Of a DNA stretch of 64,000 nucleotides, positions 13,334 through 24,494 are shown piece by piece. Under the pieces are notes generated by a model, which was not told the DNA's origin, made no database searches, and was given only the letters and a program-made list of their open reading frames with translations. Position 1 is the stretch's first letter, and the number at the start of each line of letters is the position of its first letter. Source of the DNA: Planctomycetota bacterium (GTDB taxonomy: Bacteria > Planctomycetota > Phycisphaerae > Phycisphaerales > SM1A02); the NCBI GenBank assembly GCA_017859745.1, contig JAFMML010000008.1, positions 7,027-71,026 on the forward strand. The letters are read 5' to 3'. A program made the position numbers and the translations under genes.

Positions 13334-13795
13334 CTACCGTGTCGAGACTTCGACGGCGACACTGAAACTCGATGGTTCGGCCGACGGCGACTTGGGCTGC
13401 ACGTACTCGAACACCAACAAGACGCGCCCCGGGCCCTGAGCGACGAACCGAAGCTGCTGGGTCCGGGCCAACTCATCCGAACCGGACGCCCCATTCGCCG
13501 CCACCCATCGAGTGCCATCAGGCACGAGCACGGCGGCGTCGGGGAGAGCACGTAGTTCCCAGACTCTTCCGCTGGAAGGATTGCCGAACAGCTCCACGGT
13601 CATGCGTTCCCCGGGCGCGAGGCGTACGGTCTCTCCTGCATCGCCCGCCGTCACCACGATTCCAGATGAAGCGACATTGCCTGTGGACGCGCATCCGTAG
13701 GCGAGCGATAGCGACGTCGCAGCAGAAGCTGCAGCGAGGATTGCGAACATCTCGTTGCGGGTTCGTCGAGTGTGTCGAAGGCGGTTTGGATCCAT
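13334..13795 (-). CDS. chagasin-family (I42) peptidase inhibitor lipoprotein
   Basis: Signal peptide with lipobox (LSLAYGC), a chagasin motif GNPSSGRVWEL (compare NPTTGYxW), and LRFVAQGPGRVLLVFEYVQP. Confidence 0.6.
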   Translation of the reverse strand: MDPNRLRHTRRTRNEMFAILAAASAATSLSLAYGCASTGNVASSGIVVTAGDAGETVRLAPGERMTVELFGNPSSGRVWELRALPDAAVLVPDGTRWVAANGASGSDELARTQQLRFVAQGPGRVLLVFEYVQPKSPSAEPSSFSVAVEVSTR

Positions 13796-14148
13796 GACGC
13801 AGCAGGCTATCGGGTTGGCCACGACGCTCCGAGTCAAGATTCACGAGCGACGTCCATAGGTGCAACGGCGGGCGGATGATCGAGATGGGATTGGGGGAGC
13901 ACTCTCCGTGAGAACGGCGACCAGTTCGACTTGGTCCGAATCTCTGGAGGGTGGCTCCAAGTGATGAGCGTGGAACTCGCCGACTGTTATTGATCAATAA
14001 AAGGCCGTGCGAGGTGGCCTGCGAGACCGCGGGGCGATCTTGGGTCTTGGAGTCCGATAACACATAGTCATCGGGCCGAGAGGTTGGGGCGAGCCGGCGA
14101 CCGAAACGCCAGCAACTTTCCGGCCTGCCGAGACTCCCTTACCATTGC

Positions 14149-14164
14149 TGTTCCACGTGGAACT
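14149..14164. promoter_or_regulatory. parS site 1 (TGTTCCACGTGGAACT)
   Basis: The 14-bp core GTTCCACGTGGAAC is a perfect palindrome. It differs from the canonical parS TGTTTCACGTGAAACA only by a symmetric T>C / A>G pair. It lies 17 nt upstream of the chosen parB start. Confidence 0.7.
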
Positions 14165-14180
14165 GCATGGGAGACTTCGA

Positions 14181-15365
14181 GTGACCGATGGCAAGAAATC
14201 AGACGCGAAGCGACCAAGACGCCTGGGCCGGGGCCTAGCCGGTCTCATCCCGACGGGCGCCGGGGGCAGATCAGCTGGTTCGTCAACCAGTAGTACACGC
14301 GGGGAGGAAATCGCAGAGCCTCCCGCTCTAGTCGACATCCGTTCTGACGCGTCAACGCGGGTTGTGGACACGCCTGCAAGAGAAGAGACGGTCACATCGG
14401 GGGCAGCGGAGATTGAGATTCGAGCTCCTCACCATGCGAAACCGCAGGTCCAGTTTCCGGCGGGAACTGGTACGGACACCGAACCTGCTTCCGGTTTGGC
14501 AGACGGTGTTCCACGTGGAACCTCGGTGGCCGGCGAAGAGGCGTCGCGACATGAGGAACTCGAGTACCTCGATCCGTCGATGATCGAGGCGAATCCACAC
14601 CAGCCAAGAGAGTACTTCGATCAAGAAGCGATTGAGAAGCTGGCCGCGTCCATCAAGGCGTCCGGCCTTATCCAACCCATCGTCGTCCGACGCATTGGAC
14701 ACCGGATTGAACTCGTTGCCGGCGAGCGACGCCTGAGAGCCAGCAAACTCGCCGGCCTCCCCCAGATCCCCGCCATCGTTCGCCAGCTGTCGGAACGCCA
14801 GACCGCCGAGTGGGCACTCGTTGAGAACCTGCAGCGAGAGGATCTGAATCCCCTCGAACGAGCAAGGGGCCTACGTCGCCTCATTGATGAATTCAGTTTG
14901 ACCCATCAGCAAGCGGCTGAAGCAGTAGGTATGGAGCGGGCCTCCGTCTCCAACCTCCTCCGCTTGCTTGATCTAGATGAGACCACAGCGTCCCTGGTGG
15001 CACGGGGAACTCTTGGTCAAGGGCATGCCAAGGTTCTCCTTTCCGTGTCGGATCTCACCCTCCGGAGCGAGCTCTGCCAAGCAATTGTCGCGCGAAACTG
15101 GTCGGTCCGCCGTCTAGAGGTCGAGGTGCGCCGCCTTCTGGCCCCGCCATCGATGTCCGCACCCACGGCCACCATCAGTCGCGAGCGAGGCCGAACTCAA
15201 CAAATTGATAAACTTGAACGTGAGCTCTCTGAGCACCTCGGCACGCGGGTCCAAATCTCGCTGAGTCGCCAAGAAGGCCAAGGCCGCCTTCTGATCGACT
15301 TCCACAGCCTCGAGCACTTCGACGACCTCATGGATCGGTTTGGGTTCAACACGCCCGCCGATTGA
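14181..15365 (+). CDS. parB: chromosome-partitioning protein ParB/Spo0J
   Basis: N-terminal RLGRGLAGLI peptide, ParB box IEANPHQPREYF...IQPIVVRR, GERRLRAS CTP-binding motif, HTH (THQQAAEAVGMERASVSNLLRLL) and a C-terminal dimerisation segment GRLLIDFHSLEHFDDLMDRF. GTG 14181 sits 6 nt after GGGAGA. Confidence 0.85.
   Translation: MTDGKKSDAKRPRRLGRGLAGLIPTGAGGRSAGSSTSSTRGEEIAEPPALVDIRSDASTRVVDTPAREETVTSGAAEIEIRAPHHAKPQVQFPAGTGTDTEPASGLADGVPRGTSVAGEEASRHEELEYLDPSMIEANPHQPREYFDQEAIEKLAASIKASGLIQPIVVRRIGHRIELVAGERRLRASKLAGLPQIPAIVRQLSERQTAEWALVENLQREDLNPLERARGLRRLIDEFSLTHQQAAEAVGMERASVSNLLRLLDLDETTASLVARGTLGQGHAKVLLSVSDLTLRSELCQAIVARNWSVRRLEVEVRRLLAPPSMSAPTATISRERGRTQQIDKLERELSEHLGTRVQISLSRQEGQGRLLIDFHSLEHFDDLMDRFGFNTPAD
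14507..14522. promoter_or_regulatory. parS site 2 (TGTTCCACGTGGAACC), inside parB
   Basis: It shares the identical 15-mer TGTTCCACGTGGAAC with site 1. It lies within the parB linker-coding region and encodes GVPRGT. Confidence 0.7.
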
Positions 15366-15579
15366 GCTGAACGCAGCTCGCCTGGTGTCAACTCGAGTCT
15401 GGAGGGCCGCGAGACTCGTTATCGGACTGTTTGATCGATCGCCCGAGTACATCCGCGAACTTGCCCAAAGGACGGTCAAAGTCCATCAAGTCCGGCAAGT
15501 CCCGAAAAGTCGGATCTCGTTTCCTCCGATGCACCGTGGCGCGGGTTGCACCAGCAACCTCCCCGGAGACCGATCCGAA

Positions 15580-15771
15580 ATGACCACCCCCGATCAAGTC
15601 ATCGCTCGAGTCCGATCCGAGTACGCCCGGATCCTGAACGATTGGTTCGCCGACCTGATGGAACTCCGGCGGCAGGGGATTCTCGAACACACTTGGCAAG
15701 CGAACCGCGACGACGAGTACGCCGGAAACGTCGAACGTCCATACGACGCGACCCGTCGTCGCGCGGCGTGA
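15580..15771 (+). CDS. hypothetical small protein (63 aa), weak call
   Basis: This is the only ORF in the 15366-15997 gap with non-biased composition (MTTPDQVIARVRSEYARILNDWFADLMELRRQG...). A GGAG lies 11 nt upstream. No recognisable family. Confidence 0.2.
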   Translation: MTTPDQVIARVRSEYARILNDWFADLMELRRQGILEHTWQANRDDEYAGNVERPYDATRRRAA

Positions 15772-15997
15772 GAGCGATGCACTGAACGCGGCGCACGCGG
15801 TCTCGCGGGTCGCGCGACTGCATGTCCTTCAATGGATGCGCCCGGACGGCGATGCCGACGCGCCGATGCAAGACGCACCTTCGCCGACTCGATCTCGTGG
15901 ACATCGACGACGAGCGGACTGCGCCCATCGCCGCGTCGCTCATGACGAGCGCCGATGCGCTACGCCCCCGAACACACTGGCCGATCGGTAGACGCGA

Positions 15998-16507
15998 TCA
16001 TCGCACCCGTGGCCCAACCGCGACGGCGGGGAGACCGACCGACACGACATCGGCCGGCAGCACACCCGCGACCTGGGAACGCGCCCCGACGACCGTGCCG
16101 TCTCCAATGAGGGATTCGGGAAGCACGATGGTCTCCGCCGCAATCCAGCATCCACTTCCAATCCGAATCGGTCCTTCACCGACGCCGACCGCCGCGGTCA
16201 GCAACGCCACGCCCTGACTGATGGTGGTCCCGCGACCAATCGTCACCGGATGACGGCCCGAGATCATCGCCTTGTCGCCGATCATCGCTCTTGCGCCGAG
16301 CCGAAGCTGCCATGGCGCATCGATGCTCACGGAACGCCGCACGCGAGCGCCGCGTTCGATGCTGGCGCCGAACATCCGAAGCACCACGTTGCGAAGTCCA
16401 TACGCGACGTGCGGCGTGAAGCGAAGGCACCATCGGCCACATCCCGACCACATCATGCGACGCAGTCGGCTGGGGTCGGACTGGACACCTGTGGACACGG
16501 TGCTCAC
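15998..16507 (-). CDS. WcaF-like hexapeptide-repeat O-acetyltransferase
   Basis: WcaF-type N-terminus (LRNVVLRMFGASIERGARV...APWQLRLG) followed by left-handed beta-helix repeats. The GTG start overlaps the upstream stop (GTGA). Confidence 0.7.
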   Translation of the reverse strand: MSTVSTGVQSDPSRLRRMMWSGCGRWCLRFTPHVAYGLRNVVLRMFGASIERGARVRRSVSIDAPWQLRLGARAMIGDKAMISGRHPVTIGRGTTISQGVALLTAAVGVGEGPIRIGSGCWIAAETIVLPESLIGDGTVVGARSQVAGVLPADVVSVGLPAVAVGPRVR

Positions 16508-17049
16508 GACGACACCTCGTTGGCCGATGTCTCTTCATCCACACGGGCCGGATTGCCTCGCACTCGGGTATCCGGCGGGACATCTCGAAACACCGCCGCT
16601 TGAGGCGCAACGCCGGATCGCTCGCCGACTCGTACGCCCGGACCGATGAAGGCCGACGCCCCGATCCTCGCATCCGCGCCGATGTGGATCGGGCTTCGAA
16701 TCAACGGAAACCCGGGAGCTCGATGGTCGTGAGTACCCGCACACAGGTGCGCTCTGACGTCCACTTGCGCTCCCGACTCCAGTTCGATCTCGCCCAACGA
16801 ATACAGGACGACCTCGTCGCCGATCATGACGTCGTCGCCCACACGGAGGTGCCAAGGCACCGCGATCTCGACACCCCGTCCGATGTGGCAACGTGAGCCC
16901 ACACGGCCACCAAACAGGCGGACAAGCATCACCCGAGTCGTCGAACAGCACCCCAGCACCGCCCAGGTCGTCGACCACAGCGTCCGACCGAGCTTGGCCT
17001 TGAACGACCACGACGAGCGCCGCGTCGGCTCCAGGTCCCTCTCGCTCAT
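16504..17049 (-). CDS. WcaF-like hexapeptide-repeat O-acetyltransferase (second, tandem)
   Basis: LVRLFGGRVGSRCHIGRGVEIAVPWHLRVGDDVMIGD...CAGTHDH...GNPAR. The start was set at ATG 17049 (MSERDLEP). Confidence 0.7.
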   Translation of the reverse strand: MSERDLEPTRRSSWSFKAKLGRTLWSTTWAVLGCCSTTRVMLVRLFGGRVGSRCHIGRGVEIAVPWHLRVGDDVMIGDEVVLYSLGEIELESGAQVDVRAHLCAGTHDHRAPGFPLIRSPIHIGADARIGASAFIGPGVRVGERSGVAPQAAVFRDVPPDTRVRGNPARVDEETSANEVSS

Positions 17050-17271
17050 GGCGATGTCGGTCCATGCAGCCGTCCGACCTCGTCGGCCAACGTCCAATGC
17101 GAGGTATGCGTCCGGCCGAACCGCGTGCACGGTTGCAGGGGGAGAAGGCCAGACGTCCCGGCCATGGTGTCGCGAACCAGCACCGCCGACGCATGAGAAG
17201 CTCCTGCACTCCCCTCGCCATGCGGTGCATCGAGCAGCGATCGATCGATGCTGCAGTCGCCAACCGTCCGT

Positions 17272-18795
17272 TCAATCATCTGATCGCTCCATCTCGGGAT
17301 CGCGCGGGCGGCCTCGCCGTCTCAACAGTTCGAGGCCCCATCGCAACTGGCCCCTCTCGAAGACCGCAACGAACGTGCTCCATCCAGCGAGGAAGATCGA
17401 CAGGCCGATCACGCCGTCAGCAAGATCGATGTTCGCGGAACTGGGCCAGTGTCCCCAGAACCACACTGCAAGGACGCCGGTGGCCAAGGCCAGAATCCCC
17501 GGGCCGAGCCACCGGAGCATCGACATCGGGCGAACCCCGATCAGGCGCAAGGCCGAACACTGGATCGTCACGCCGATCAATGCCCGCTGCACGGCGACCA
17601 GCCACACCAACGCCGCCAGATCCTCGCCGAAGATCGAGGCGCCTACGAACACCACTGCGATCAAGGATGCGCCGTCCACGGCGTTCAGCACCGCGACCCG
17701 AACCCATCGCGCGTGGACCTCCATCAGCGCGAACCCAACCGGCGACGCGGCCCTGACCGCGGTGGAGAGTGCCACCGCCTGAACGACCACGATGGACTCG
17801 TCCCAACGCCCGTCCCAGACCAGATGCACCAGAGCGGGCGAGAGGAGTGCCAGCGCTGCGCAGACGGGCGGGAGCAGCAGATTGACCGTGCCGATTGCGC
17901 GGCGTGCCGCCGCACGCAGTCGAACGGGATCGTCTCCGACCCCCGTCAGGCCCGGCAGCAGGACGGATCGGAACGACGCCATGAAGAGCTGCATCGAGGC
18001 CACGGCCAACTGGAAGCCGAAGAAGTAGACGCCCAACACCTTCGGGGCAGCGATCGTGAGCGCGAGGTAGTCGCCCCGTCCGGCGAGCGTCAGCGCCGTG
18101 TTCGCGGCGACGATCCATCGCGTCGATCGCAGGACGTCCAACACCGAATCGGCACGACCGTCGCAGGCAGGCTTCGGCAGAGTCTTCGCCTGTCGCGCAA
18201 GCAAGGCCCACTCCACGGGCAGACTCGCAACGAGTGGGATCACGAACGCGAACGCTCCCAGGCCCGACAGCGCCAGCACCACCGACAGCACACCGCGAAA
18301 CACGATCGCCACGACCTCGGTCCGTGCGACGGTCCCGAATCGCATGGCATGCCGAAGGCGAGTTCTCAGCATGGATACCGGCGTCCGCGTCGCAGCGTGG
18401 ACCGCCATCACACCGAGAACACCGGCCAGCACCGCATCGCCTCGCCACCACCATGCCCACGCCGCGATCCCCAGCACCGCCAGACCCGCGAGGCCGTTGG
18501 CGAGGTACGCGATGCGGGTCGACGCAGCGATCACGCGGCCGTACGAATCTCCGCTACGAAGCAGAAACCGTTCGGCACCCCCGTCGAGCAGCGCCGCCGC
18601 AACCAGATTCAAACCCAGAGCCGCGGCATAGATGGCGAAGTCCTCGGGGACGAGGACCCAGCCGAGCACCACCTGGACCCCCATCCCGACCGCCTTGCCC
18701 GCCATCGCTCCGGCCATGACCCACGCCGCTCCAAAGGCGACCTGCCGACCGATCGAGGCCTTGGGCGCCGAAGCTTCGGTGGGTGATGTGGACAT
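17272..18795 (-). CDS. wzx: polysaccharide flippase (Wzx / PST family)
   Basis: 507 aa with about 12-14 hydrophobic segments. The N-terminus is typical of PST-family polysaccharide biosynthesis proteins, and the gene sits in a glycan locus. Confidence 0.65.
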   Translation of the reverse strand: MSTSPTEASAPKASIGRQVAFGAAWVMAGAMAGKAVGMGVQVVLGWVLVPEDFAIYAAALGLNLVAAALLDGGAERFLLRSGDSYGRVIAASTRIAYLANGLAGLAVLGIAAWAWWWRGDAVLAGVLGVMAVHAATRTPVSMLRTRLRHAMRFGTVARTEVVAIVFRGVLSVVLALSGLGAFAFVIPLVASLPVEWALLARQAKTLPKPACDGRADSVLDVLRSTRWIVAANTALTLAGRGDYLALTIAAPKVLGVYFFGFQLAVASMQLFMASFRSVLLPGLTGVGDDPVRLRAAARRAIGTVNLLLPPVCAALALLSPALVHLVWDGRWDESIVVVQAVALSTAVRAASPVGFALMEVHARWVRVAVLNAVDGASLIAVVFVGASIFGEDLAALVWLVAVQRALIGVTIQCSALRLIGVRPMSMLRWLGPGILALATGVLAVWFWGHWPSSANIDLADGVIGLSIFLAGWSTFVAVFERGQLRWGLELLRRRGRPRDPEMERSDD

Positions 18796-19069
18796 CGATG
18801 GCGACGCTGCAGGAGGAGAGTTCTCGGACGCAGGGCAGGGACTTGCAACCCCGCCAAGTTGGATATCGGATGAACACCCCGCACGGCGGAGGGGCTCGAT
18901 CGGTTTTCATCGAGTTGTCGGCACCACCAGCGGATTTCGCCGACGTTCCCGTCGACGCGGCCCGCGGACGAGGTCGATCATCTCCGACGACTCGCAGCGA
19001 CGGCGAGCACCGCATTCTCTCCGGACCGAACCGCCACCACGACCGGGCCGTCGGGCCGAACTCGAACCC

Positions 19070-19972
19070 ATGCGACCACCCCCGATCCTCGACTGGTTCG
19101 CGAAGCGATGCCTGCCGCCGGCAGTCGCTCGCCGCGCCAAGCTGATCGCCTCGGTGCCGAGGTACCACCTTCACCGGCGGGCCTGTCGTCGTGGGTGGCT
19201 CGCACATGGCGATCGCTATCCGCACCACCTGCTGTTCGTGGCGGGACTTCCGAAGTCGGGGACCACCTGGGTCGAACGGATGCTCTCGAGCGTTCCGGGA
19301 TTCGGCTCCCTCCTGATCCCAGAGGTCAATCGCCACGAGTTGGATCATGGCGAGAGCCACACCTTCGAACTGCCGGACGACTTCGCCTCCCGGTTCGACC
19401 GCATGCTCGTGATCACCAAGATGCATGTGCATGGGTCGATCCACAACTGCCGCGTGCTCGGCGACGGAGACGTCCCGTATGCGATCGTCCATCGAGATCT
19501 CCGGGACGTGGCGATCAGTCACATCCACTACGTCCGCAGCACTCCGTGGCACCCCGAGCATCGGGACTACGCGAACCTCGACATCGAACGAGGCCTGAGA
19601 CACTTCGGCGAGACCCTGCTCTCGCCCTACGCCGACTGGGTGCGCAGCTGGCACCGGCACCGCGATCCCGCCATCAGCACGATCGTGGCCTACGAGGAGA
19701 TGCTTCACGATCCATCGAAGGCGCTGACGCGAATCGTCGAGACCTTTCGCCTTCCGCTCGATCGGGACCGGATCGAAGAGATCGTCGCCGCGCACGACTT
19801 CACCCGGATGAGCGGCGGGCGCCGTCCTGGCGAGGAGCGCGCCGACGCCTTCGTGCGCAGCGGAACGGCCGGAGGCTGGCGCCGTCACTTCACGCCGGAA
19901 CTCGAGTCCCGCTATCGAGAAGTGCTTGGGCGGTTTCCCACCGACCTCGGTCTGCCGCCGTTGGACTGGTGA
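19070..19972 (+). CDS. PAPS-dependent sulfotransferase
   Basis: 5'-PSB loop LPKSGTTW and 3'-PB motif VHRDLRDVAIS. The start was set at ATG 19070, because the upstream part of the ORF is antisense to wzx. Confidence 0.75.
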   Translation: MRPPPILDWFAKRCLPPAVARRAKLIASVPRYHLHRRACRRGWLAHGDRYPHHLLFVAGLPKSGTTWVERMLSSVPGFGSLLIPEVNRHELDHGESHTFELPDDFASRFDRMLVITKMHVHGSIHNCRVLGDGDVPYAIVHRDLRDVAISHIHYVRSTPWHPEHRDYANLDIERGLRHFGETLLSPYADWVRSWHRHRDPAISTIVAYEEMLHDPSKALTRIVETFRLPLDRDRIEEIVAAHDFTRMSGGRRPGEERADAFVRSGTAGGWRRHFTPELESRYREVLGRFPTDLGLPPLDW

Positions 19973-20086
19973 CGCGCTCCGCACTCCCGTTCCGTCCGCC
20001 CATGAAGCACGCCGCCCGCGCCGGATGAAGGCGACACGGGCGGCGCGAGCGGGGGTTGGGAAGGATGTTCGAGCGGGTGCCCGAGC

Positions 20087-23000
20087 TCAGGGACCCTGTT
20101 CGCCCGGTTCGGAAAGCAACGCCTCGATCTCGGCCTTGACCTCTCCCAGGCGCTGGTAGACGTGCTCCGAGGTGGCGAGGTCGAGTTCGACCTTCAATTG
20201 TGGATCGGACCAGACGGCGGGTTCGACGCCGCCGAGGAAGTCGTAGGTGAAGGCGAATCGCGCCTCCGCCTGAAGCACCCCGAGGGTCTCCGCGGAGGTC
20301 GCCGCACGAGTCCAGTAGGACAGACCCGTCCAGAACGCCACACCGGTTGCGCCCATCTCCACGAGCGGACGCACCTGATCGCGAAGCAACTCCTCGAGCG
20401 TCATCTGCTTCATGTTGTATTCGATGGTGCCGACCTTCCAGAACATGGGGCTGACCATCGGGACGATCTCCTTCGGCTCGCCGCCGTTGGCGGTGTTGAA
20501 CCGATTGCACAGCTCCATCTGGTAGCGGCGGAACGCGGTCTCCCGCGCGGTCACCGAGTTCCAGGACGACTCGCCGAAGAGGGCGAGTTCGTATCGGTCG
20601 TAGACGCTGGGGTTGATCCAGTCCATCTCGCGAAGAACCGGCGTGTAGTTCGCAAGCGTCGAGGACAGCTCGGCCTCCTTGGCCTCCTCGGTGGCATTCG
20701 CCCAGTTGCTGTTGTTGAACCAGTAACGGAGGCGAGGCATGCCGTACATCGACCACTGCACCATGGGAAACTCCGATCGCACCGTCTGCAGCAGGTTGAC
20801 GATGGTGTCGACGGTCAGCTGGTAGTTGGGATCGGCCGGACCGGCCTGCAGCCGATCGAGGAACGGATTCTCGAAGTCGAGGATGCCGTAGCCGCTGGGG
20901 CTGTCGCCGTGCTTGCTTCGAATCGCCTCGACGACCAGGGCCGCGTCGATCACACCGGTCGAGGACGCGTTGGGATCGACTCCCTCGTAGATGATGATGT
21001 ACGGCAGATGGCCCTGCTCGATCGCCAGATCGTGGAACGTCGCGTCGGGAAGCGGATCGAACATGAGCTTCGCGCTCGTGGAGGGCCGCGGGTTCACGGG
21101 ATCGACGAGCACGGTTCGGAAGACCGCACGAAGGTTGGTCCCGTTGGGGACGCCCATCTGCGATGCGGCCAGTTCCGTCGACAGGGTTCCCGAAGTGGAG
21201 GACCCGGTCGCGTAGGGGGTGAATCGGAAGACGTCGCTCCGACCGGCGCCGAAGGAGCCCGCGGAGACGTTGCCCTTCGAGGACATGAGCAGCGATCCGT
21301 CGGCATCGGCGAAGACCGCGTCGAGCTTCTCGTTGTTGTTGGAGAAGCCGACGTCCGATCCGTCGAAGTGCATCGACCACGCGCCCGCCGTCGCCTGACC
21401 CAACGAGGACGGGACGAACCGCATCAGGTCCTGACCCTTGAAGGGCGGCACTCCGGGAAGGGAACCTCCGTTCTGCGTGGCGATCAGCAGGGATCCATCG
21501 GCCATCGCGGAGACGGCGGCGATCGCCTGATCTCCGCTGCTCGAGAGGCCGACATCCGAACCGTCGAAGTGGAAGTGCCACATGCCGGCGGTGACCTCGC
21601 CGAGCTGGTCTGGCGAGAATCGAACAAGGTCGTAGGCGTCGACGGTGCTGCCGTTGGGACCTCCCACGAGACCCCCGACGACTCCGCCACCTTCGATCGC
21701 CATGAGCAGTTCCCCGCTCTCCAGCACCGATGCGGCCGCGATGGTCAGACCACTCAGGCCGACATCGTCTCCGTCGAAGAAGACGTTCCACGACCCCGTC
21801 GCGGAATTGAACGCCGCAAGATCGCATCCGTCGACGACCAGATCGCCCGGCAGTGTGGTCGCGCCGCCGAACGACCCCACCAGAAGCGGCACCGGCATGC
21901 AGGGCTCGCACAAGGCCGCAGCGTTCGCAACGCAGTTCTCGTCCCACACCGTCGAGCAGCAGAGCGGATCGACCGAACACACCAGTTCGCAGCAGGCCCC
22001 GTCCGCGCAATATGGCGTGTCGTGAACGGTGCAGCAGTCTCCCGCGGTCTGGTCCCCGCACGCCGACGGGGGATTGACGCCGCCGCCACCGCCACCGCCG
22101 CCGCCATCCCCGGGGCGCTCGCCGACCGGCCAGGAGAAGGTCACCATGGCGAAGGCAGCGACGTTGTCGCCGTTGGAGAGGCCCGAGGCCGTGCCGTCGA
22201 ACCAGTCGTAGAAGACTCCGCTGCTTGCAGACCCGAGGGAACTCGGCGTGAAGCCCATCAGGTCCCCACGACCCGCGGACACGCCCGGCACAGAGGCGTT
22301 GCCTCTGGTCGAGATCAGCAGATCGCCCGTCGCGGTCGTGCCGATCGCATCGATCGCCTCGTTGTTGTGACTCAGGCCAACGTCGGATCCATCGAGATGA
22401 ACCGACCACGAGCCCGCGGTCGCAGCACCCAGCGAGGAGGGTGCGAAGTGCACGAGGTCCTGCTTCGCGAAGGAGCCGACGCCCGGAAGCGAACCTCCGC
22501 CTTCGAAGGACATGATCAGAGAGCCGTCGTCGAGAGCGGCCACGGCGGAGATCGACATTCCGCCCGATAGACCGACATCGGATCCGTCGAACAGGAACGA
22601 GAGCGTGCCGGCGGTGTAGCGCCCGACCGTCTCGGGCGTGAATCGAACGAGGTCCACCGCGTCGACGGCTCCGCCCGCGGGCCCGTCGGCGAGGTCGGCG
22701 ACGAATCCGCCTCCGGCGATCGCAAGGACCAGGTCCCCGTTCGCCAGCGCAGCGACCGCCGAGATCGACGCGCCGCCGAGGCCGATCGCATCTCCATCGA
22801 GAAACAGGCTCCATGAACCGGTCGCATCGTCGTACGCCGCCAGATCGCCCCCACCGATCGCAAGCCCGCCCGGGAGCCCGGCGGCGCCGCCGAAGCCCAT
22901 GACCGCACGGGTGATCGGCTCGCAGCCTCCGCAGAGTTCGCCCGCATTGCCGGCGCAGTACTCGTCCCATCCGACGTCGCAGCAGTAGGGATCGGCGTTG

Positions 23001-23182
23001 CAGACGAGCGTGCAGCACGCCTCATCGCTGCACCCGATGCCCGAGTGGGGCTGGCAGCAGTCGCCCGCGCCCGGATCGCCGCACTGGGCCTGAACGGCGA
23101 CGGTGGCCAGTCCCGACATCAGCATGGCGAAGCACGAACACACACGCGAACGAACGACGGTTCCAGGTCGAAGACGGGGCAT
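20087..23182 (-). CDS. secreted modular protein: 2 x (12-Cys module + 4 repeats) + C-terminal GH56-like (hyaluronidase-like) TIM-barrel domain
   Basis: Signal peptide MPRLRPGTVVRSRVCSCFAMLMSGLATVAVQAQ. An internal duplication is separated by a Gly9 run. The C-terminal domain carries GYGILDFENPF, WSMYGMPRLRYW, NPSVYDRY and GATGVAFWTG. The CDS itself is secure; the family assignment is inference. Confidence 0.65.
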   Translation of the reverse strand: MPRLRPGTVVRSRVCSCFAMLMSGLATVAVQAQCGDPGAGDCCQPHSGIGCSDEACCTLVCNADPYCCDVGWDEYCAGNAGELCGGCEPITRAVMGFGGAAGLPGGLAIGGGDLAAYDDATGSWSLFLDGDAIGLGGASISAVAALANGDLVLAIAGGGFVADLADGPAGGAVDAVDLVRFTPETVGRYTAGTLSFLFDGSDVGLSGGMSISAVAALDDGSLIMSFEGGGSLPGVGSFAKQDLVHFAPSSLGAATAGSWSVHLDGSDVGLSHNNEAIDAIGTTATGDLLISTRGNASVPGVSAGRGDLMGFTPSSLGSASSGVFYDWFDGTASGLSNGDNVAAFAMVTFSWPVGERPGDGGGGGGGGGVNPPSACGDQTAGDCCTVHDTPYCADGACCELVCSVDPLCCSTVWDENCVANAAALCEPCMPVPLLVGSFGGATTLPGDLVVDGCDLAAFNSATGSWNVFFDGDDVGLSGLTIAAASVLESGELLMAIEGGGVVGGLVGGPNGSTVDAYDLVRFSPDQLGEVTAGMWHFHFDGSDVGLSSSGDQAIAAVSAMADGSLLIATQNGGSLPGVPPFKGQDLMRFVPSSLGQATAGAWSMHFDGSDVGFSNNNEKLDAVFADADGSLLMSSKGNVSAGSFGAGRSDVFRFTPYATGSSTSGTLSTELAASQMGVPNGTNLRAVFRTVLVDPVNPRPSTSAKLMFDPLPDATFHDLAIEQGHLPYIIIYEGVDPNASSTGVIDAALVVEAIRSKHGDSPSGYGILDFENPFLDRLQAGPADPNYQLTVDTIVNLLQTVRSEFPMVQWSMYGMPRLRYWFNNSNWANATEEAKEAELSSTLANYTPVLREMDWINPSVYDRYELALFGESSWNSVTARETAFRRYQMELCNRFNTANGGEPKEIVPMVSPMFWKVGTIEYNMKQMTLEELLRDQVRPLVEMGATGVAFWTGLSYWTRAATSAETLGVLQAEARFAFTYDFLGGVEPAVWSDPQLKVELDLATSEHVYQRLGEVKAEIEALLSEPGEQGP

Positions 23183-23390
23183 GTCGACGCGACTCCTGTG
23201 ACTTGAGGGTGGCCGGCACATCACAGCGCCGACGGTCCAAGGGAGAATCGCATCGATTCGGGGCACGACACGCCGGGCATGTTCCCCAACCGCGCCTGCA
23301 GAAGGTGGTCCCGCTGCCAGTGGTGACCCCAAACGACGAACGCCCCGCCGAAGCGGGGCGCTCGTGATCAGTTGGATTCCGACGAGTCGA

Positions 23391-24494
23391 TCAGGGGCAG
23401 ACACCCCAGTTCGCAAGCAGGATCGACAGGTCCGCGGCATCGACCACGCCGCTGTTGTTGAGATCCGCCGACACCGGAACGCCGATCGGCGAGAAGCCCC
23501 AGTAGCCGATCATGATGCTGATGTCGGACCCGTTGACGTCGCCATCGTTGTTGATGTCGCCCTGGCACCCCGTGCACAGGACGTTCTTGCCGATGTCCTC
23601 GTACTGCCCGGAGATCGCGTCGGGGAAGTTGCCGCAGATCTCGGTGTTCGAGAGGGCCAGATCGCTGAAGCCGGGACGCACCCAGATGCCTCCGCCGGTG
23701 ACGGCCACGTTGCTGGTCACGCTGCAGCCGGTGACGACCATGCCGTCTCCGAAGCTGTTCCACGTGAAGCCGCCGCCGGTCGCCGCGGTGTTGTTCGCGA
23801 AGACGCAGTCGACGACGACCGGAGTGCCGCGAGTGAAGTGGACGCCTCCACCGAAGGATTGCGGAGCCCGGTTCAGGGTGAAGGTGCATCCGGTGAAGAG
23901 GACTCCTCCTCCCCAGCACTGGGCGCCACCACCGTCGGTGTTCGCGTAGTTGTCGTGGAAGACCGTTCCGGAGACCTCGGAGAAGCTCTCGCGGAAGTAC
24001 GCACCACCGCCGAAGCCGGACTGGTTCTCGGTGACGATGCAGTCGACGATGGTCGGCGACGACTGGTCGACGTACATGCCGCCACCGAACGTGTAGAAGG
24101 GAAGCGGCTCGTAGATGGTGCCGACGATCCCGTTGGTGATCGTGAAGCCTTCCAGGATGGTGTCCGGGCCTTCCCCGCTGACGGCGGTCACCACCGATGC
24201 CTTGGCACCGGTGCCATCGATGGTCGTGGCTGCGGCCCCGTCGGAGGATCGAACGACGATCGCCTTGCCGAGGAAGTCGATCGACTCGGTGTAGACGCCA
24301 GGAGCGACGAGGACCACGTCGCCACCCACCGCAGCGTCGATCGCCGACTGGATGGTGGGGTAGTCCCCCGGGACATCGATGGTCGTACCCGCGGTGGCGA
24401 TCCCGCCAGCGGCGAGAAGCGAGGCGACACCCGCACCAACAAGAAGCGATCGGGACTTGCTGGACATGGTGGACATGGTGGACATGCTGGACAT
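23391..24494 (-). CDS. secreted right-handed beta-helix protein with C-terminal dockerin-type repeats
   Basis: Signal/TM segment LLVGAGVASLLAAGGIATA, repeated GGG-containing beta-helix turns (GGGMYV, GGGAYF, GGGVLF, GGGVHF, GGGFTW, GGGIWV), and C-terminal GDINNDGDVNGSDISIMIGYWG and ADLNNSGVVDAADLSILLANWG. Confidence 0.7.
   Translation of the reverse strand: MSSMSTMSTMSSKSRSLLVGAGVASLLAAGGIATAGTTIDVPGDYPTIQSAIDAAVGGDVVLVAPGVYTESIDFLGKAIVVRSSDGAAATTIDGTGAKASVVTAVSGEGPDTILEGFTITNGIVGTIYEPLPFYTFGGGMYVDQSSPTIVDCIVTENQSGFGGGAYFRESFSEVSGTVFHDNYANTDGGGAQCWGGGVLFTGCTFTLNRAPQSFGGGVHFTRGTPVVVDCVFANNTAATGGGFTWNSFGDGMVVTGCSVTSNVAVTGGGIWVRPGFSDLALSNTEICGNFPDAISGQYEDIGKNVLCTGCQGDINNDGDVNGSDISIMIGYWGFSPIGVPVSADLNNSGVVDAADLSILLANWGVCP
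24459..24494 (-). repeat. 4 x 9-bp tandem repeat (ATGTCCASC) at the very start of the beta-helix gene
   Basis: The coding strand reads ATGTCCAGC ATGTCCACC ATGTCCACC ATGTCCAGC (MSS MST MST MSS), giving four in-frame ATGs. Confidence 0.9.

What the first reader, a model, noticed from the sequence alone, without database searches (positions are those of the whole stretch)
13838..15365. Orphan, compositionally atypical parB with two identical parS palindromes and a ~100-aa linker insertion
parS sites:
- The 15-mer TGTTCCACGTGGAAC occurs twice, at 14149 just upstream of parB and at 14507 inside parB.
- Its 14-bp core is a perfect palindrome and a symmetric variant of canonical parS.

Features of the ParB gene and protein:
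- The protein is otherwise canonical (GERRLRAS, HTH, C-terminal dimerisation).
- No parA precedes it. Upstream is a 385-nt intergenic region and a divergent inhibitor gene.
- About 100 aa of low-complexity linker separate the RLGRGLAGLI peptide from the ParB box. The second parS lies in that linker-coding DNA.
- Hand-counted 60-nt lines inside parB give roughly 50-63% GC, against about 70% in a line of the EPS region.
- The locus interrupts two glycan gene blocks.

This could be an origin-proximal partition site with relocated parA, or a captured partition module.
Basis: partly seen in the sequence, partly recalled or inferred. Interest (0 to 1): 0.6.

Follow-up and report, generated by a model that had tools for sequence, protein, structure and literature searches.

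The report
Ordinary chromosomal ParB centromere, clade-typical layout
This is the normal, vertically inherited chromosome-partition gene parB of a Phycisphaerales bacterium with its two parS binding sites; the missing neighbouring parA, the long floppy linker and the low GC are shared by its relatives, so nothing here was captured from elsewhere.

Summary
Two exact copies of TGTTCCACGTGGAAC lie at 14149 and 14507. They are the only perfect parS sites in the 3.24-Mb assembly. The first ends 17 nt before the GTG start of parB (14181). The second lies in frame inside parB and encodes V-P-R-G-T in a ~100-aa disordered linker.

The protein is a canonical chromosomal ParB and the only one in the genome. 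It has the N-terminal LGRGL peptide, the GERRLRA and ENLQRE CTPase motifs, an HTH and a C-terminal dimerisation domain. parB is 61% GC against 68.6% for the genome, which puts it at the 0.2th percentile of windows.

None of this is peculiar to this genome:
- In 30 relatives of the same genus, family and order, no parA lies within 1.5 kb of parB. In nearly all of them parS sites sit at the parB 5' end.
- In 10 relatives scanned whole, every perfect parS lies at parB.
- parA lies elsewhere, from 15 kb to over 1 Mb away. Here it is on contig C123.
- The astB / I42-inhibitor / parB / polysaccharide-gene order recurs in close relatives.
- The ParB tree follows the taxonomy.
- A ~4-point GC dip around parS is seen in 7 of 7 loci.
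- In a genus-mate, dnaA lies 54.5 kb from parB.

Verdict: an origin-region ParB-parS centromere with an unlinked parA, not a captured module. The one mildly new detail is that parS is dual-coded as VPRGT in disordered ParB linkers.

The parts
13334..13795 (-). Divergent chagasin-type (Inhibitor_I42) gene, the conserved upstream neighbour of parB
   Evidence: Pfam PF09394, E = 2e-8. The same astB / I42 / parB order is seen in metagenome relatives L065 and L066.
13796..14180 (.). 385-nt divergent intergenic region (60% GC). It holds the presumed parB promoter, a TCCGATAAC motif at 14053-14061 and parS-1.
   Evidence: Sequence. GC value. The TCCGATAAC motif (CTGATAAC in L065) recurs upstream of parS-1 in L065 and L066. 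No sigma-70 consensus match was found.
14150..14163 (.). parS-1, the perfect 14-bp palindrome GTTCCACGTGGAAC, in the parB 5' leader 17 nt before the GTG start
   Evidence: Relatives carry a parS at -140 to -31 from the start codon.
14169..14174 (+). Shine-Dalgarno-like GGGAGA, 6 nt before the GTG start
   Evidence: Read directly from the sequence.
14181..15365 (+). parB coding sequence, 394 aa from a GTG start, the only ParB in the genome
   Evidence: Pfam ParB_N + HTH_ParB + ParB_C. TIGR00180 scores 168.5 bits against a cut-off of 58. A 99%-identical 394-aa database protein supports the start. Single ParB_N hit in the genome. Best solved relative is Myxococcus ParB 7BNK, E = 2e-48.
14220..14249 (+). 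N-terminal peptide RLGRGLAGLI (residues 14-23), the ParA-ATPase-stimulating motif
   Evidence: L15, G16, G18 and L19 are invariant in 35 homologues. The role of the ParB N-terminal peptide is taken from the review PMC7333895.
14250..14552 (+). Disordered, low-complexity linker (residues ~24-124)
   Evidence: AlphaFold pLDDT 39-53 with no secondary structure. Not alignable among homologues except for VPRGT.
14508..14521 (.). parS-2, the same perfect palindrome, read in frame as codons 110-114 (V-P-R-G-T) of parB
   Evidence: VPRGT is encoded by GTT CCA CGT GGA ACN in 4 of 4 homologues whose DNA was fetched independently. 25 of 120 homologues carry VPRGT.
14553..14834 (+). ParB_N CTPase domain with the QPR, GERRLRA and ENLQREDLNP motifs
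   Evidence: Pfam. Aligns to the CTP-binding ParB 7BNK. These columns are invariant in alignment A1. pLDDT above 90.
14838..15137 (+). ParB helix-turn-helix domain, which recognises parS
   Evidence: PF17762, E = 1.4e-30. pLDDT above 90.
15198..15341 (+). C-terminal dimerisation domain
   Evidence: PF23552, E = 3.5e-13. pLDDT 86-89.
23756..23770 (.). Degenerate parS-like site TGTTCCACGTGAAGC, 9.2 kb downstream. Probably not part of the centromere.
   Evidence: No counterpart in the orthologous gene of genus-mates.

Best explanation
This is the native chromosomal centromere of a Phycisphaerales (Planctomycetota) genome. It consists of the single parB gene and its two cognate parS sites.

Inferred mechanism:
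- ParB dimers recognise the two GTTCCACGTGGAAC palindromes through the HTH domain.
- They bind CTP through the GERRxRA and ENLQRE motifs, close into clamps and slide onto flanking DNA.
- This builds one partition complex over and around parB itself.
- The N-terminal LGRGL peptide, held on a ~100-aa disordered tether, stimulates the ATPase of a Soj-type ParA encoded elsewhere in the genome (contig C123).
- The complex probably also loads SMC.

The layout is the ancestral, vertically inherited arrangement of the order. It comprises a parB unlinked from parA, one parS in the leader, one parS in frame in the linker-coding DNA, and a local GC dip. It lies in the dnaA-side region of the chromosome. 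Because both parS sites sit in the parB transcription unit, ParB loading probably also feeds back on parB expression.

What is shown: sequence features, conservation, synteny and phylogeny. What is inferred: binding, CTP-dependent sliding, ParA stimulation, SMC loading and autoregulation.
For: The protein and its sites:
- Canonical ParB domains and motifs.
- Only one ParB in the genome.
- The only two perfect parS sites in the genome lie at parB.

A partner ParA exists:
- A Soj-type ParA is present on C123 (AAA_31, 179 bits, KGGVGKT).
- It has orthologues in 10 of 10 relatives, 53-76% identical.

The layout is clade-wide:
- In 30 relatives no ParA lies within 1.5 kb of parB. Twenty-eight of the 29 loci other than the window's own have 1-4 parS-like sites (up to 2 mismatches to the 16-mer); in nearly all of them these lie at or just upstream of the parB 5' end.
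- In 10 relatives scanned whole, every perfect GTTNCACGTGNAAC site lies at parB.
- The five genomes without a full ParB match also have no parS.

Inheritance is vertical:
- The ParB tree puts the window with its genus-mates (SH-aLRT 99) inside its family. It needs 9 label changes against a minimum of 7; shuffled labels need 19 on average.
- C116 is collinear with G005:C1.
- The order B12-binding / astB / I42 / parB / polysaccharide genes recurs in L065 and L066.

Position relative to dnaA:
- dnaA lies 54.5 kb from parB in genus-mate G005 and 110-290 kb away in other family members. In the closed genome G023 it is 155 kb away out of 3.84 Mb.

The low GC is not specific to this genome:
- A dip of about 4 points from -500 to +1500 around parS is seen in 7 of 7 loci.
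- Orthologous parB genes are 60-63% GC inside loci of 65-67%.
Against: - No experiment shows binding, CTPase activity or ParA interaction.
- The assembly is fragmented, so the distance to oriC in this genome is inferred from synteny. C116 and C85 each hold extra DNA not matched in G005.
- In another family of the order (closed genomes G035 and G039), parB lies about 1.1 Mb from dnaA. Proximity to dnaA is therefore not universal in the order, unless dnaA does not mark oriC there.
- The cause of the GC dip and of the low GC3 (0.63, against 0.84 for parA) is unexplained.
- NCBIfam has no model that names the ParA as Soj above its cut-off.
Confidence: 0.88

Rival explanations
1. Captured partition module: parB and parS were acquired horizontally from a plasmid, ICE or prophage. 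This would explain the low GC and the missing parA.
For: - parB GC is at the 0.2th percentile of genome windows.
- GC3 is 0.63 against 0.68-0.83 in neighbouring genes.
- The EPS block downstream of parB is variable between genus-mates.
Against: - It is the sole ParB in the genome.
- Plasmid-type models score far below their cut-offs: RepB 57 bits against 201, PRTRC 94 against 279.
- The tree is congruent with the taxonomy.
- Upstream synteny is conserved in genus-mates and metagenome relatives.
- The same GC dip is seen in 7 of 7 related loci.
- No integrase or other mobile-element gene was seen in the ORFs next to parB that were scanned against Pfam.
Confidence: 0.03
2. A ParA-independent ParB: the protein works mainly as an SMC loader, nucleoid organiser or local transcription regulator. 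Streptococcus pneumoniae, which has an orphan parB, is the model. The unlinked ParA-like ATPases would serve other cargoes.
For: - parA and parB are unlinked across the order, by up to 1.4 Mb.
- S. pneumoniae has an orphan parB that cooperates with capsule proteins (PMC7022226).
- This parB sits next to polysaccharide genes in several relatives.
Against: - The ParA-stimulating LGRGL peptide is invariant in 35 homologues.
- A Soj-type ParA is conserved in 10 of 10 relatives and evolves in step with the taxonomy: 76% identity within the genus, 53-59% beyond it.
- No ParA-like or BY-kinase gene lies on the window's contig.
Confidence: 0.07
3. The two palindromes act mainly as regulatory elements of parB expression rather than as the centromere. 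They could be operators or roadblocks on DNA, or 5-bp-stem hairpins in the mRNA leader and coding sequence.
For: - Both sites lie inside the parB transcription unit, and parS-1 ends 17 nt before the start codon.
- A 5' mRNA structure controls ParB levels in Caulobacter (PMC13371061).
Against: - The sequence is the pan-bacterial parS consensus TGTTNCACGTGNAACA (consensus from PMC7022226).
- These are the only perfect parS sites in this genome and in each of 10 relatives, so no other centromere candidate exists.
- In many relatives the sites lie 100-400 bp upstream of the start, outside any plausible leader hairpin position.
- Regulation and centromere function are not exclusive.
Confidence: 0.05
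4. A Noc-like nucleoid-occlusion paralogue rather than a partition ParB.
For: The best NCBIfam hit by score is TIGR04285 nucleoid_noc, at 196 bits.
Against: - That score is far below the model's cut-off of 315 bits.
- The gene carries canonical parS sites, not Noc-binding sites.
- It has the ParB C-terminal dimerisation domain.
- It is the only ParB-family protein in the genome.
- Noc is a Firmicutes-restricted paralogue (established knowledge).
Confidence: 0.01

Closest known systems
Bacillus subtilis Spo0J (ParB) with parS-359
   Same: Chromosomal ParB CTPase with the same domain order. One of its parS sites lies inside the parB gene itself (PMC4442127). The solved fragment 6SDK matches at E = 6.5e-44.
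   Different: - In B. subtilis, soj and spo0J form one operon next to oriC, and about ten parS sites are spread over the origin region (established knowledge).
- Here parA is on another contig, and the only two perfect parS sites sit at parB.
- The N-terminal linker is about 100 aa here, against a few tens of residues in Spo0J.
Myxococcus xanthus ParB (PDB 7BNK, 7BNR, 7O0N)
   Same: Closest solved structure, E = 2e-48 over residues 135-317. The QPR, GERRxRA and ENLQR(x)DLNP CTP-binding motifs align residue for residue.
   Different: M. xanthus has a parAB operon and 22 parS sites near the origin (PMC3899335 abstract). This clade has 1-4 sites, all at parB.
Streptococcus pneumoniae orphan parB
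   Same: A parB gene with no adjacent parA, with parS sites near oriC, and with a functional link to capsule proteins (PMC7022226).
   Different: S. pneumoniae has no ParA at all. This genome and all 10 relatives checked keep a Soj-type ParA elsewhere, and the ParA-activating peptide is intact.
Caulobacter crescentus ParABS
   Same: The same CTP-gated clamp family (6T1F, E = 8e-31). ParB level is also controlled through the 5' end of parB (PMC13371061).
   Different: Caulobacter has a parAB operon, and the parS cluster is not inside the parB coding sequence (established knowledge).

Membership tests
Chromosomal ParB/Spo0J (TIGR00180, Class Ia ParB) | ParB_N CTPase fold with the GERRxRA arginine patch and the ENLQR motif | tested here: met
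   PF02195, E = 3.5e-31. TIGR00180 scores 168.5 bits against a cut-off of 58.45. The motifs align to 7BNK. G181, E182, R183, R184, E215, N216, Q218 and R219 are invariant in alignment A1.
Chromosomal ParB/Spo0J (TIGR00180, Class Ia ParB) | Central HTH DNA-binding domain and C-terminal dimerisation domain | tested here: met
   PF17762 at 1.4e-30 and PF23552 at 3.5e-13. The AlphaFold core has pLDDT above 90 and the C-terminal domain 86-89.
Chromosomal ParB/Spo0J (TIGR00180, Class Ia ParB) | N-terminal LG(R/K)GL peptide that activates ParA | tested here: met
   RLGRGLAGLI occupies residues 14-23. L15, G16, G18 and L19 are invariant in 35 homologues. Activity was not tested.
Chromosomal ParB/Spo0J (TIGR00180, Class Ia ParB) | Cognate parS palindrome(s) of the TGTTNCACGTGNAACA type | tested here: met
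   Two perfect 14-bp cores lie at 14150 and 14508, and there are none elsewhere in the genome. The same holds in 10 relatives.
Chromosomal ParB/Spo0J (TIGR00180, Class Ia ParB) | Partner Soj-type ParA in the genome | tested here: met
   C123:22665-23657, AAA_31 at 179 bits, KGGVGKT motif. It is not adjacent to parB, and the two genes are unlinked across the order.
Chromosomal ParB/Spo0J (TIGR00180, Class Ia ParB) | [quoted passage not shown] | tested here: inconclusive
   The genome is fragmented. By synteny with G005, dnaA is ~55 kb away. In the closed relative G023 the distance is 155 kb of 3.84 Mb. In family f2 genomes parB lies ~1.1 Mb from dnaA. oriC itself was not mapped.
Chromosomal ParB/Spo0J (TIGR00180, Class Ia ParB) | CTP-dependent loading at parS and sliding | not testable with these tools
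   Needs biochemistry or ChIP-seq.
Plasmid/ICE-type ParB (RepB, PRTRC ParB, KorB-like) | Score above the family cut-off, with mobile-element context | tested here: not met
   TIGR03734 scores 93.7 bits against 278.6, TIGR03454 57.3 against 201.5, and PRK13832 64.4 against 640. The chromosomal synteny is conserved.
Noc (nucleoid occlusion protein, TIGR04285) | Score above the cut-off, and Noc-binding sites rather than parS | tested here: not met
   196 bits against a cut-off of 315. The cognate sites are canonical parS.

The most novel reading that the evidence does not exclude
The parS site inside parB may be a true dual-coding element. In Phycisphaerales the palindrome GTTCCACGTGGAAC seems to have been placed repeatedly in the disordered segments of ParB, always in the one reading frame (Val-Pro-Arg-Gly-Thr) that a disordered linker tolerates.

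Observations behind this reading:
- The site occupies several positions: 14 aa after the LGRGL peptide, 66 aa before GERR, and once in the C-terminal linker.
- Homologues that carry it have longer linkers, median 141 aa against 99.5 aa.

If the reading is right, linker length would be shaped partly by the need to house the centromere inside the gene. ParB clamp loading on its own coding sequence would then give direct feedback between ParB occupancy and parB transcription. The conserved GC dip around parS would be a footprint of the partition complex, not of horizontal transfer.
Probability: 0.3. Interest if true: 0.45.

Novelty: new member of a known kind. Interest (0 to 1): 0.25.

Why it matters
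For genome annotation, it shows that an isolated, low-GC parB in Phycisphaerales MAGs is the native centromere and should not be flagged as a mobile element.

It documents that parA and parB are unlinked throughout this order, and that the whole parS complement (1-4 sites) sits at the 5' end of parB. This gives a simple, predictable centromere for future work on chromosome segregation in Planctomycetota, which include FtsZ-less lineages whose cell biology is poorly known (established knowledge).

The in-frame VPRGT-coded parS offers a clean handle. Synonymous recoding could separate the DNA-level role from the protein-level role.

The locus also appears to assemble or bin poorly in related MAGs, which matters for completeness estimates.

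Tried and rejected
- The search for related loci on genome contigs returned only two distant loci and gave no taxonomy. Taxonomy came instead from names attached to homologues.
- A greedy longest-ORF gene call for a genome-wide GC3 distribution was contaminated by wrong-frame ORFs, which are typical of high-GC DNA. I used total GC of windows and ORFs, and GC3 of Pfam-supported neighbours, instead.
- The sigma-70 promoter and intrinsic terminator scan found nothing between 13700 and 15700.
- Literature searches for Planctomycetes ParABS found nothing specific. Livny et al. 2007 is not held.
- The third parS-like site at 23756 has no counterpart in relatives, so I set it aside.
- The AT-rich palindrome TTATTGATCAATAA (13987-14000) is unique in the genome and absent upstream of parB in relatives. 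It is therefore not part of the conserved centromere.
- Three genus-mates lack ParB. I considered this as possible gene loss and rejected it in favour of assembly gaps. parS and astB are missing too, and in G004 the contig breaks inside astB.
- NCBIfam does not name the ParA above any cut-off.
Full report
**What is in the sequence.** The 15-mer TGTTCCACGTGGAAC is present exactly at 14149-14163 and 14507-14521. Its 14-bp core GTTCCACGTGGAAC is a perfect palindrome. It fits the pan-bacterial parS consensus TGTTNCACGTGNAACA (the consensus is quoted in PMC7022226). Shuffles of the window expect 0.17 matches at up to 2 mismatches, and 0 of 100 shuffles reach the 5 observed.

The window is C116:7027-71026 of a 147-contig, 3.24-Mb, 97%-complete assembly with 68.6% GC. 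In that whole assembly these are the only two perfect copies. Eight further sites carry one mismatch, and the reversed control pattern finds one.

**The gene.** The ORF 14145-15365 carries ParB_N, HTH_ParB and ParB_C. It passes TIGR00180 at 168.5 bits against a cut-off of 58, and it fails the plasmid RepB, PRTRC and Noc cut-offs by wide margins.
- A 99%-identical database protein of 394 aa starts VTDGKKS. The start is therefore GTG 14181, preceded by GGGAGA at 14169-14174.
- parS-1 thus lies in the leader and ends 17 nt before the start codon.
- parS-2 forms codons 110-114, GTT CCA CGT GGA ACC = VPRGT.
- The closest solved structure is the CTP-binding Myxococcus ParB 7BNK (E = 2e-48). The QPR, GERRxRA and ENLQRxDLNP motifs align with it.
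- AlphaFold with 35 homologues gives pLDDT above 90 for residues ~125-325 and 86-89 for the C-terminal dimerisation domain. Residues 1-120 score 39-53 with no secondary structure.
- The N-terminal ParA-activating peptide RLGRGLAGLI is followed by a disordered tether of about 100 aa.

**Is it an orphan?** ParB_N occurs once in the genome. A Soj-type ParA lies on another contig, at C123:22665-23657. It scores 179 bits on AAA_31, carries KGGVGKT, and has ordinary composition at 68.5% GC and GC3 0.84. A second ParA-like protein with a long C-terminal extension lies on C132. So parB is unlinked from parA, but the organism is not ParA-less.

**Is the layout peculiar to this genome? It is not.**
- ParB was found in 37 of 41 genomes of the same genus, family and order.
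- In the 30 loci fetched, no ParA lies within 1.5 kb of parB. Twenty-eight of the 29 loci other than the window's own carry 1-4 parS-like sites, in nearly all of them at or just upstream of the parB 5' end.
- In 10 relatives scanned as whole genomes, every perfect GTTNCACGTGNAAC site lies at parB.
- The parA orthologue is 15.6-35 kb away in G011, G023 and G018. It is 105 kb away in G027 and 1.35-1.4 Mb away in G035 and G039.
- Five genomes without a full ParB match also lack parS. In three genus-mates the neighbouring astB is missing as well, or is cut by a contig end. These absences are therefore assembly gaps and not gene losses (inference).

**Vertical or captured?** Homologues named by their sources are Phycisphaerales, Phycisphaerae or Planctomycetota.
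- A maximum-likelihood tree of the ParB core places the window's protein with its genus-mates and four metagenome relatives (SH-aLRT 99). This group sits inside its own family, with the other five families on the other side of the tree. The tree needs 9 label changes against a minimum of 7, and shuffled labels need 19 on average.
- Contig C116 is collinear with G005:C1 from well upstream of astB through parB and beyond. The G005 contig then continues into the window genome's contig C85, which carries dnaA.
- In G005, dnaA is 54.5 kb from parB. In other family members the distance is 110-290 kb, and in the closed 3.84-Mb genome G023 it is 155 kb.
- Two metagenome contigs whose ParB is 51-59% identical show the same order: B12-binding protein, astB, I42 inhibitor, divergent parB, polysaccharide genes.
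About 8 kb of the EPS block just downstream of parB is missing at that position in G005, so that block is variable. parB is not.

**Composition.** The GC observation is real.
- parB is 60.8% GC, at the 0.19th percentile of 1,221-bp windows of the genome. It falls in the lowest 0.8% of ORFs of at least 150 aa.
- Its GC3 is 0.63 against 0.68-0.83 in Pfam-supported neighbours.
- Orthologous parB genes show the same pattern: 60.0-62.9% GC inside loci of 65.3-66.8%.
- GC binned around the parS pair shows a dip of about 4 points from -500 to +1500 in 7 of 7 loci with long flanks.
- A feature shared by diverged orthologues at a syntenic site is not evidence of recent transfer. Its cause remains unexplained.

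**The linker and the internal parS.** Among the 120 best homologues, 101 have both motifs. In these, the distance from LGRGL to GERR ranges from 79 to 294 aa, with a median of 106. The value here is 161, near the 87th percentile. The linker is long but within the clade's range, and its sequence is not conserved.

The exception is the pentapeptide VPRGT, found in 25 of 120 homologues.
- In all four homologues whose DNA I fetched independently through the protein, VPRGT is encoded by GTT CCA CGT GGA ACN, which is parS. These are A/T-ending codons in 65-67% GC DNA.
- A nearby SPRGT in one of those homologues uses TCG CCG AGA GGC ACG. The peptide is therefore conserved because the DNA is.
- Its position falls into several classes. 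In the window's subclade it lies 66-67 aa before GERR. In a second subclade it lies 14 aa after LGRGL. Other classes are scattered, and one lies in the C-terminal linker.
- The other two reading frames (FHVE, STWN) are essentially never seen inside the protein.
- Carriers have longer linkers, median 141 against 99.5 aa.
- A parS inside parB is not new in itself: B. subtilis parS-359 lies within parB (PMC4442127).

**Mechanism.** By homology with characterised ParBs (reviews PMC7333895 and PMC7022226), ParB dimers should nucleate at the two palindromes, which are 358 bp apart. They should bind CTP, close and slide, forming one partition complex centred on parB. The tethered N-terminal peptide should stimulate the unlinked ParA, and the complex probably loads SMC. 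Since both sites lie in the parB transcription unit, feedback on parB expression is plausible. A 5' control element for ParB level is known in Caulobacter (PMC13371061). All of these steps are inferred and none was tested here.

**Verdict.** The 'origin-side centromere with parA elsewhere' reading is supported, and the 'captured module' reading is rejected. This is a new member of a known kind. Its interest is low, apart from the dual-coded parS and the conserved GC dip.

Noticed in passing
window 13987-14000: The AT-rich perfect palindrome TTATTGATCAATAA is unique in the genome (no other copy at up to 2 mismatches). It is absent from the parB upstream regions of the relatives checked, so it is a lineage-specific element and not part of the conserved centromere.
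   Followed up: partly
window 14053-14061; L065 about 3900; L066 about 2330: A motif TCCGATAAC (CTGATAAC in L065) recurs 60-100 bp upstream of parS-1 in the window and in two metagenome relatives. It could be a promoter or operator element of parB. No sigma-70 consensus match was found.
   Followed up: no
G000:C132:35167-36597 (L006 1501-2931): A second ParA-like ATPase of 476 aa with a ~220-aa C-terminal extension is conserved in all 10 relatives at 35-37% identity to the Soj-type ParA. In family f2 genomes (G030, G035, G039) it lies ~10 kb from the second DnaA-like gene.
   Followed up: no
G000:C85:26384-26866 and C79:39879-40355: This genome and all 10 relatives checked each carry two Bac_DnaA-domain genes: one scoring ~217-233 bits and a divergent one scoring ~132-158 bits.
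   Followed up: no
G035:C1 and G039:C1 (closed genomes, family f2): parB with its parS lies ~1.1 Mb (about 31-33% of the chromosome) from the main dnaA gene, and parA lies 1.35-1.4 Mb from parB. Either dnaA does not mark oriC there, or the centromere is far from the origin.
   Followed up: no
G002, G003, G004 (genus-mate MAGs); L068: Three of five genus-mates lack parB, parS and most or all of astB. In G004 a contig starts inside astB. The low-GC centromere region seems to assemble or bin poorly.
   Followed up: partly
window ~15400-23400: About 8 kb of the EPS block directly downstream of parB (acetyltransferase, flippase, sulfotransferase, large secreted protein) has no counterpart at that position in genus-mate G005. 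Parts of it reappear a few kb further on. It is a variable glycan island next to a conserved centromere.
   Followed up: partly
G000:C132:30185-30850, C85:64696-65823, C99:21337-23085: Three ORFs have very low GC (31%, 36% and 38%) in a 68.6% GC genome. They could be foreign islands or binning contaminants.
   Followed up: no
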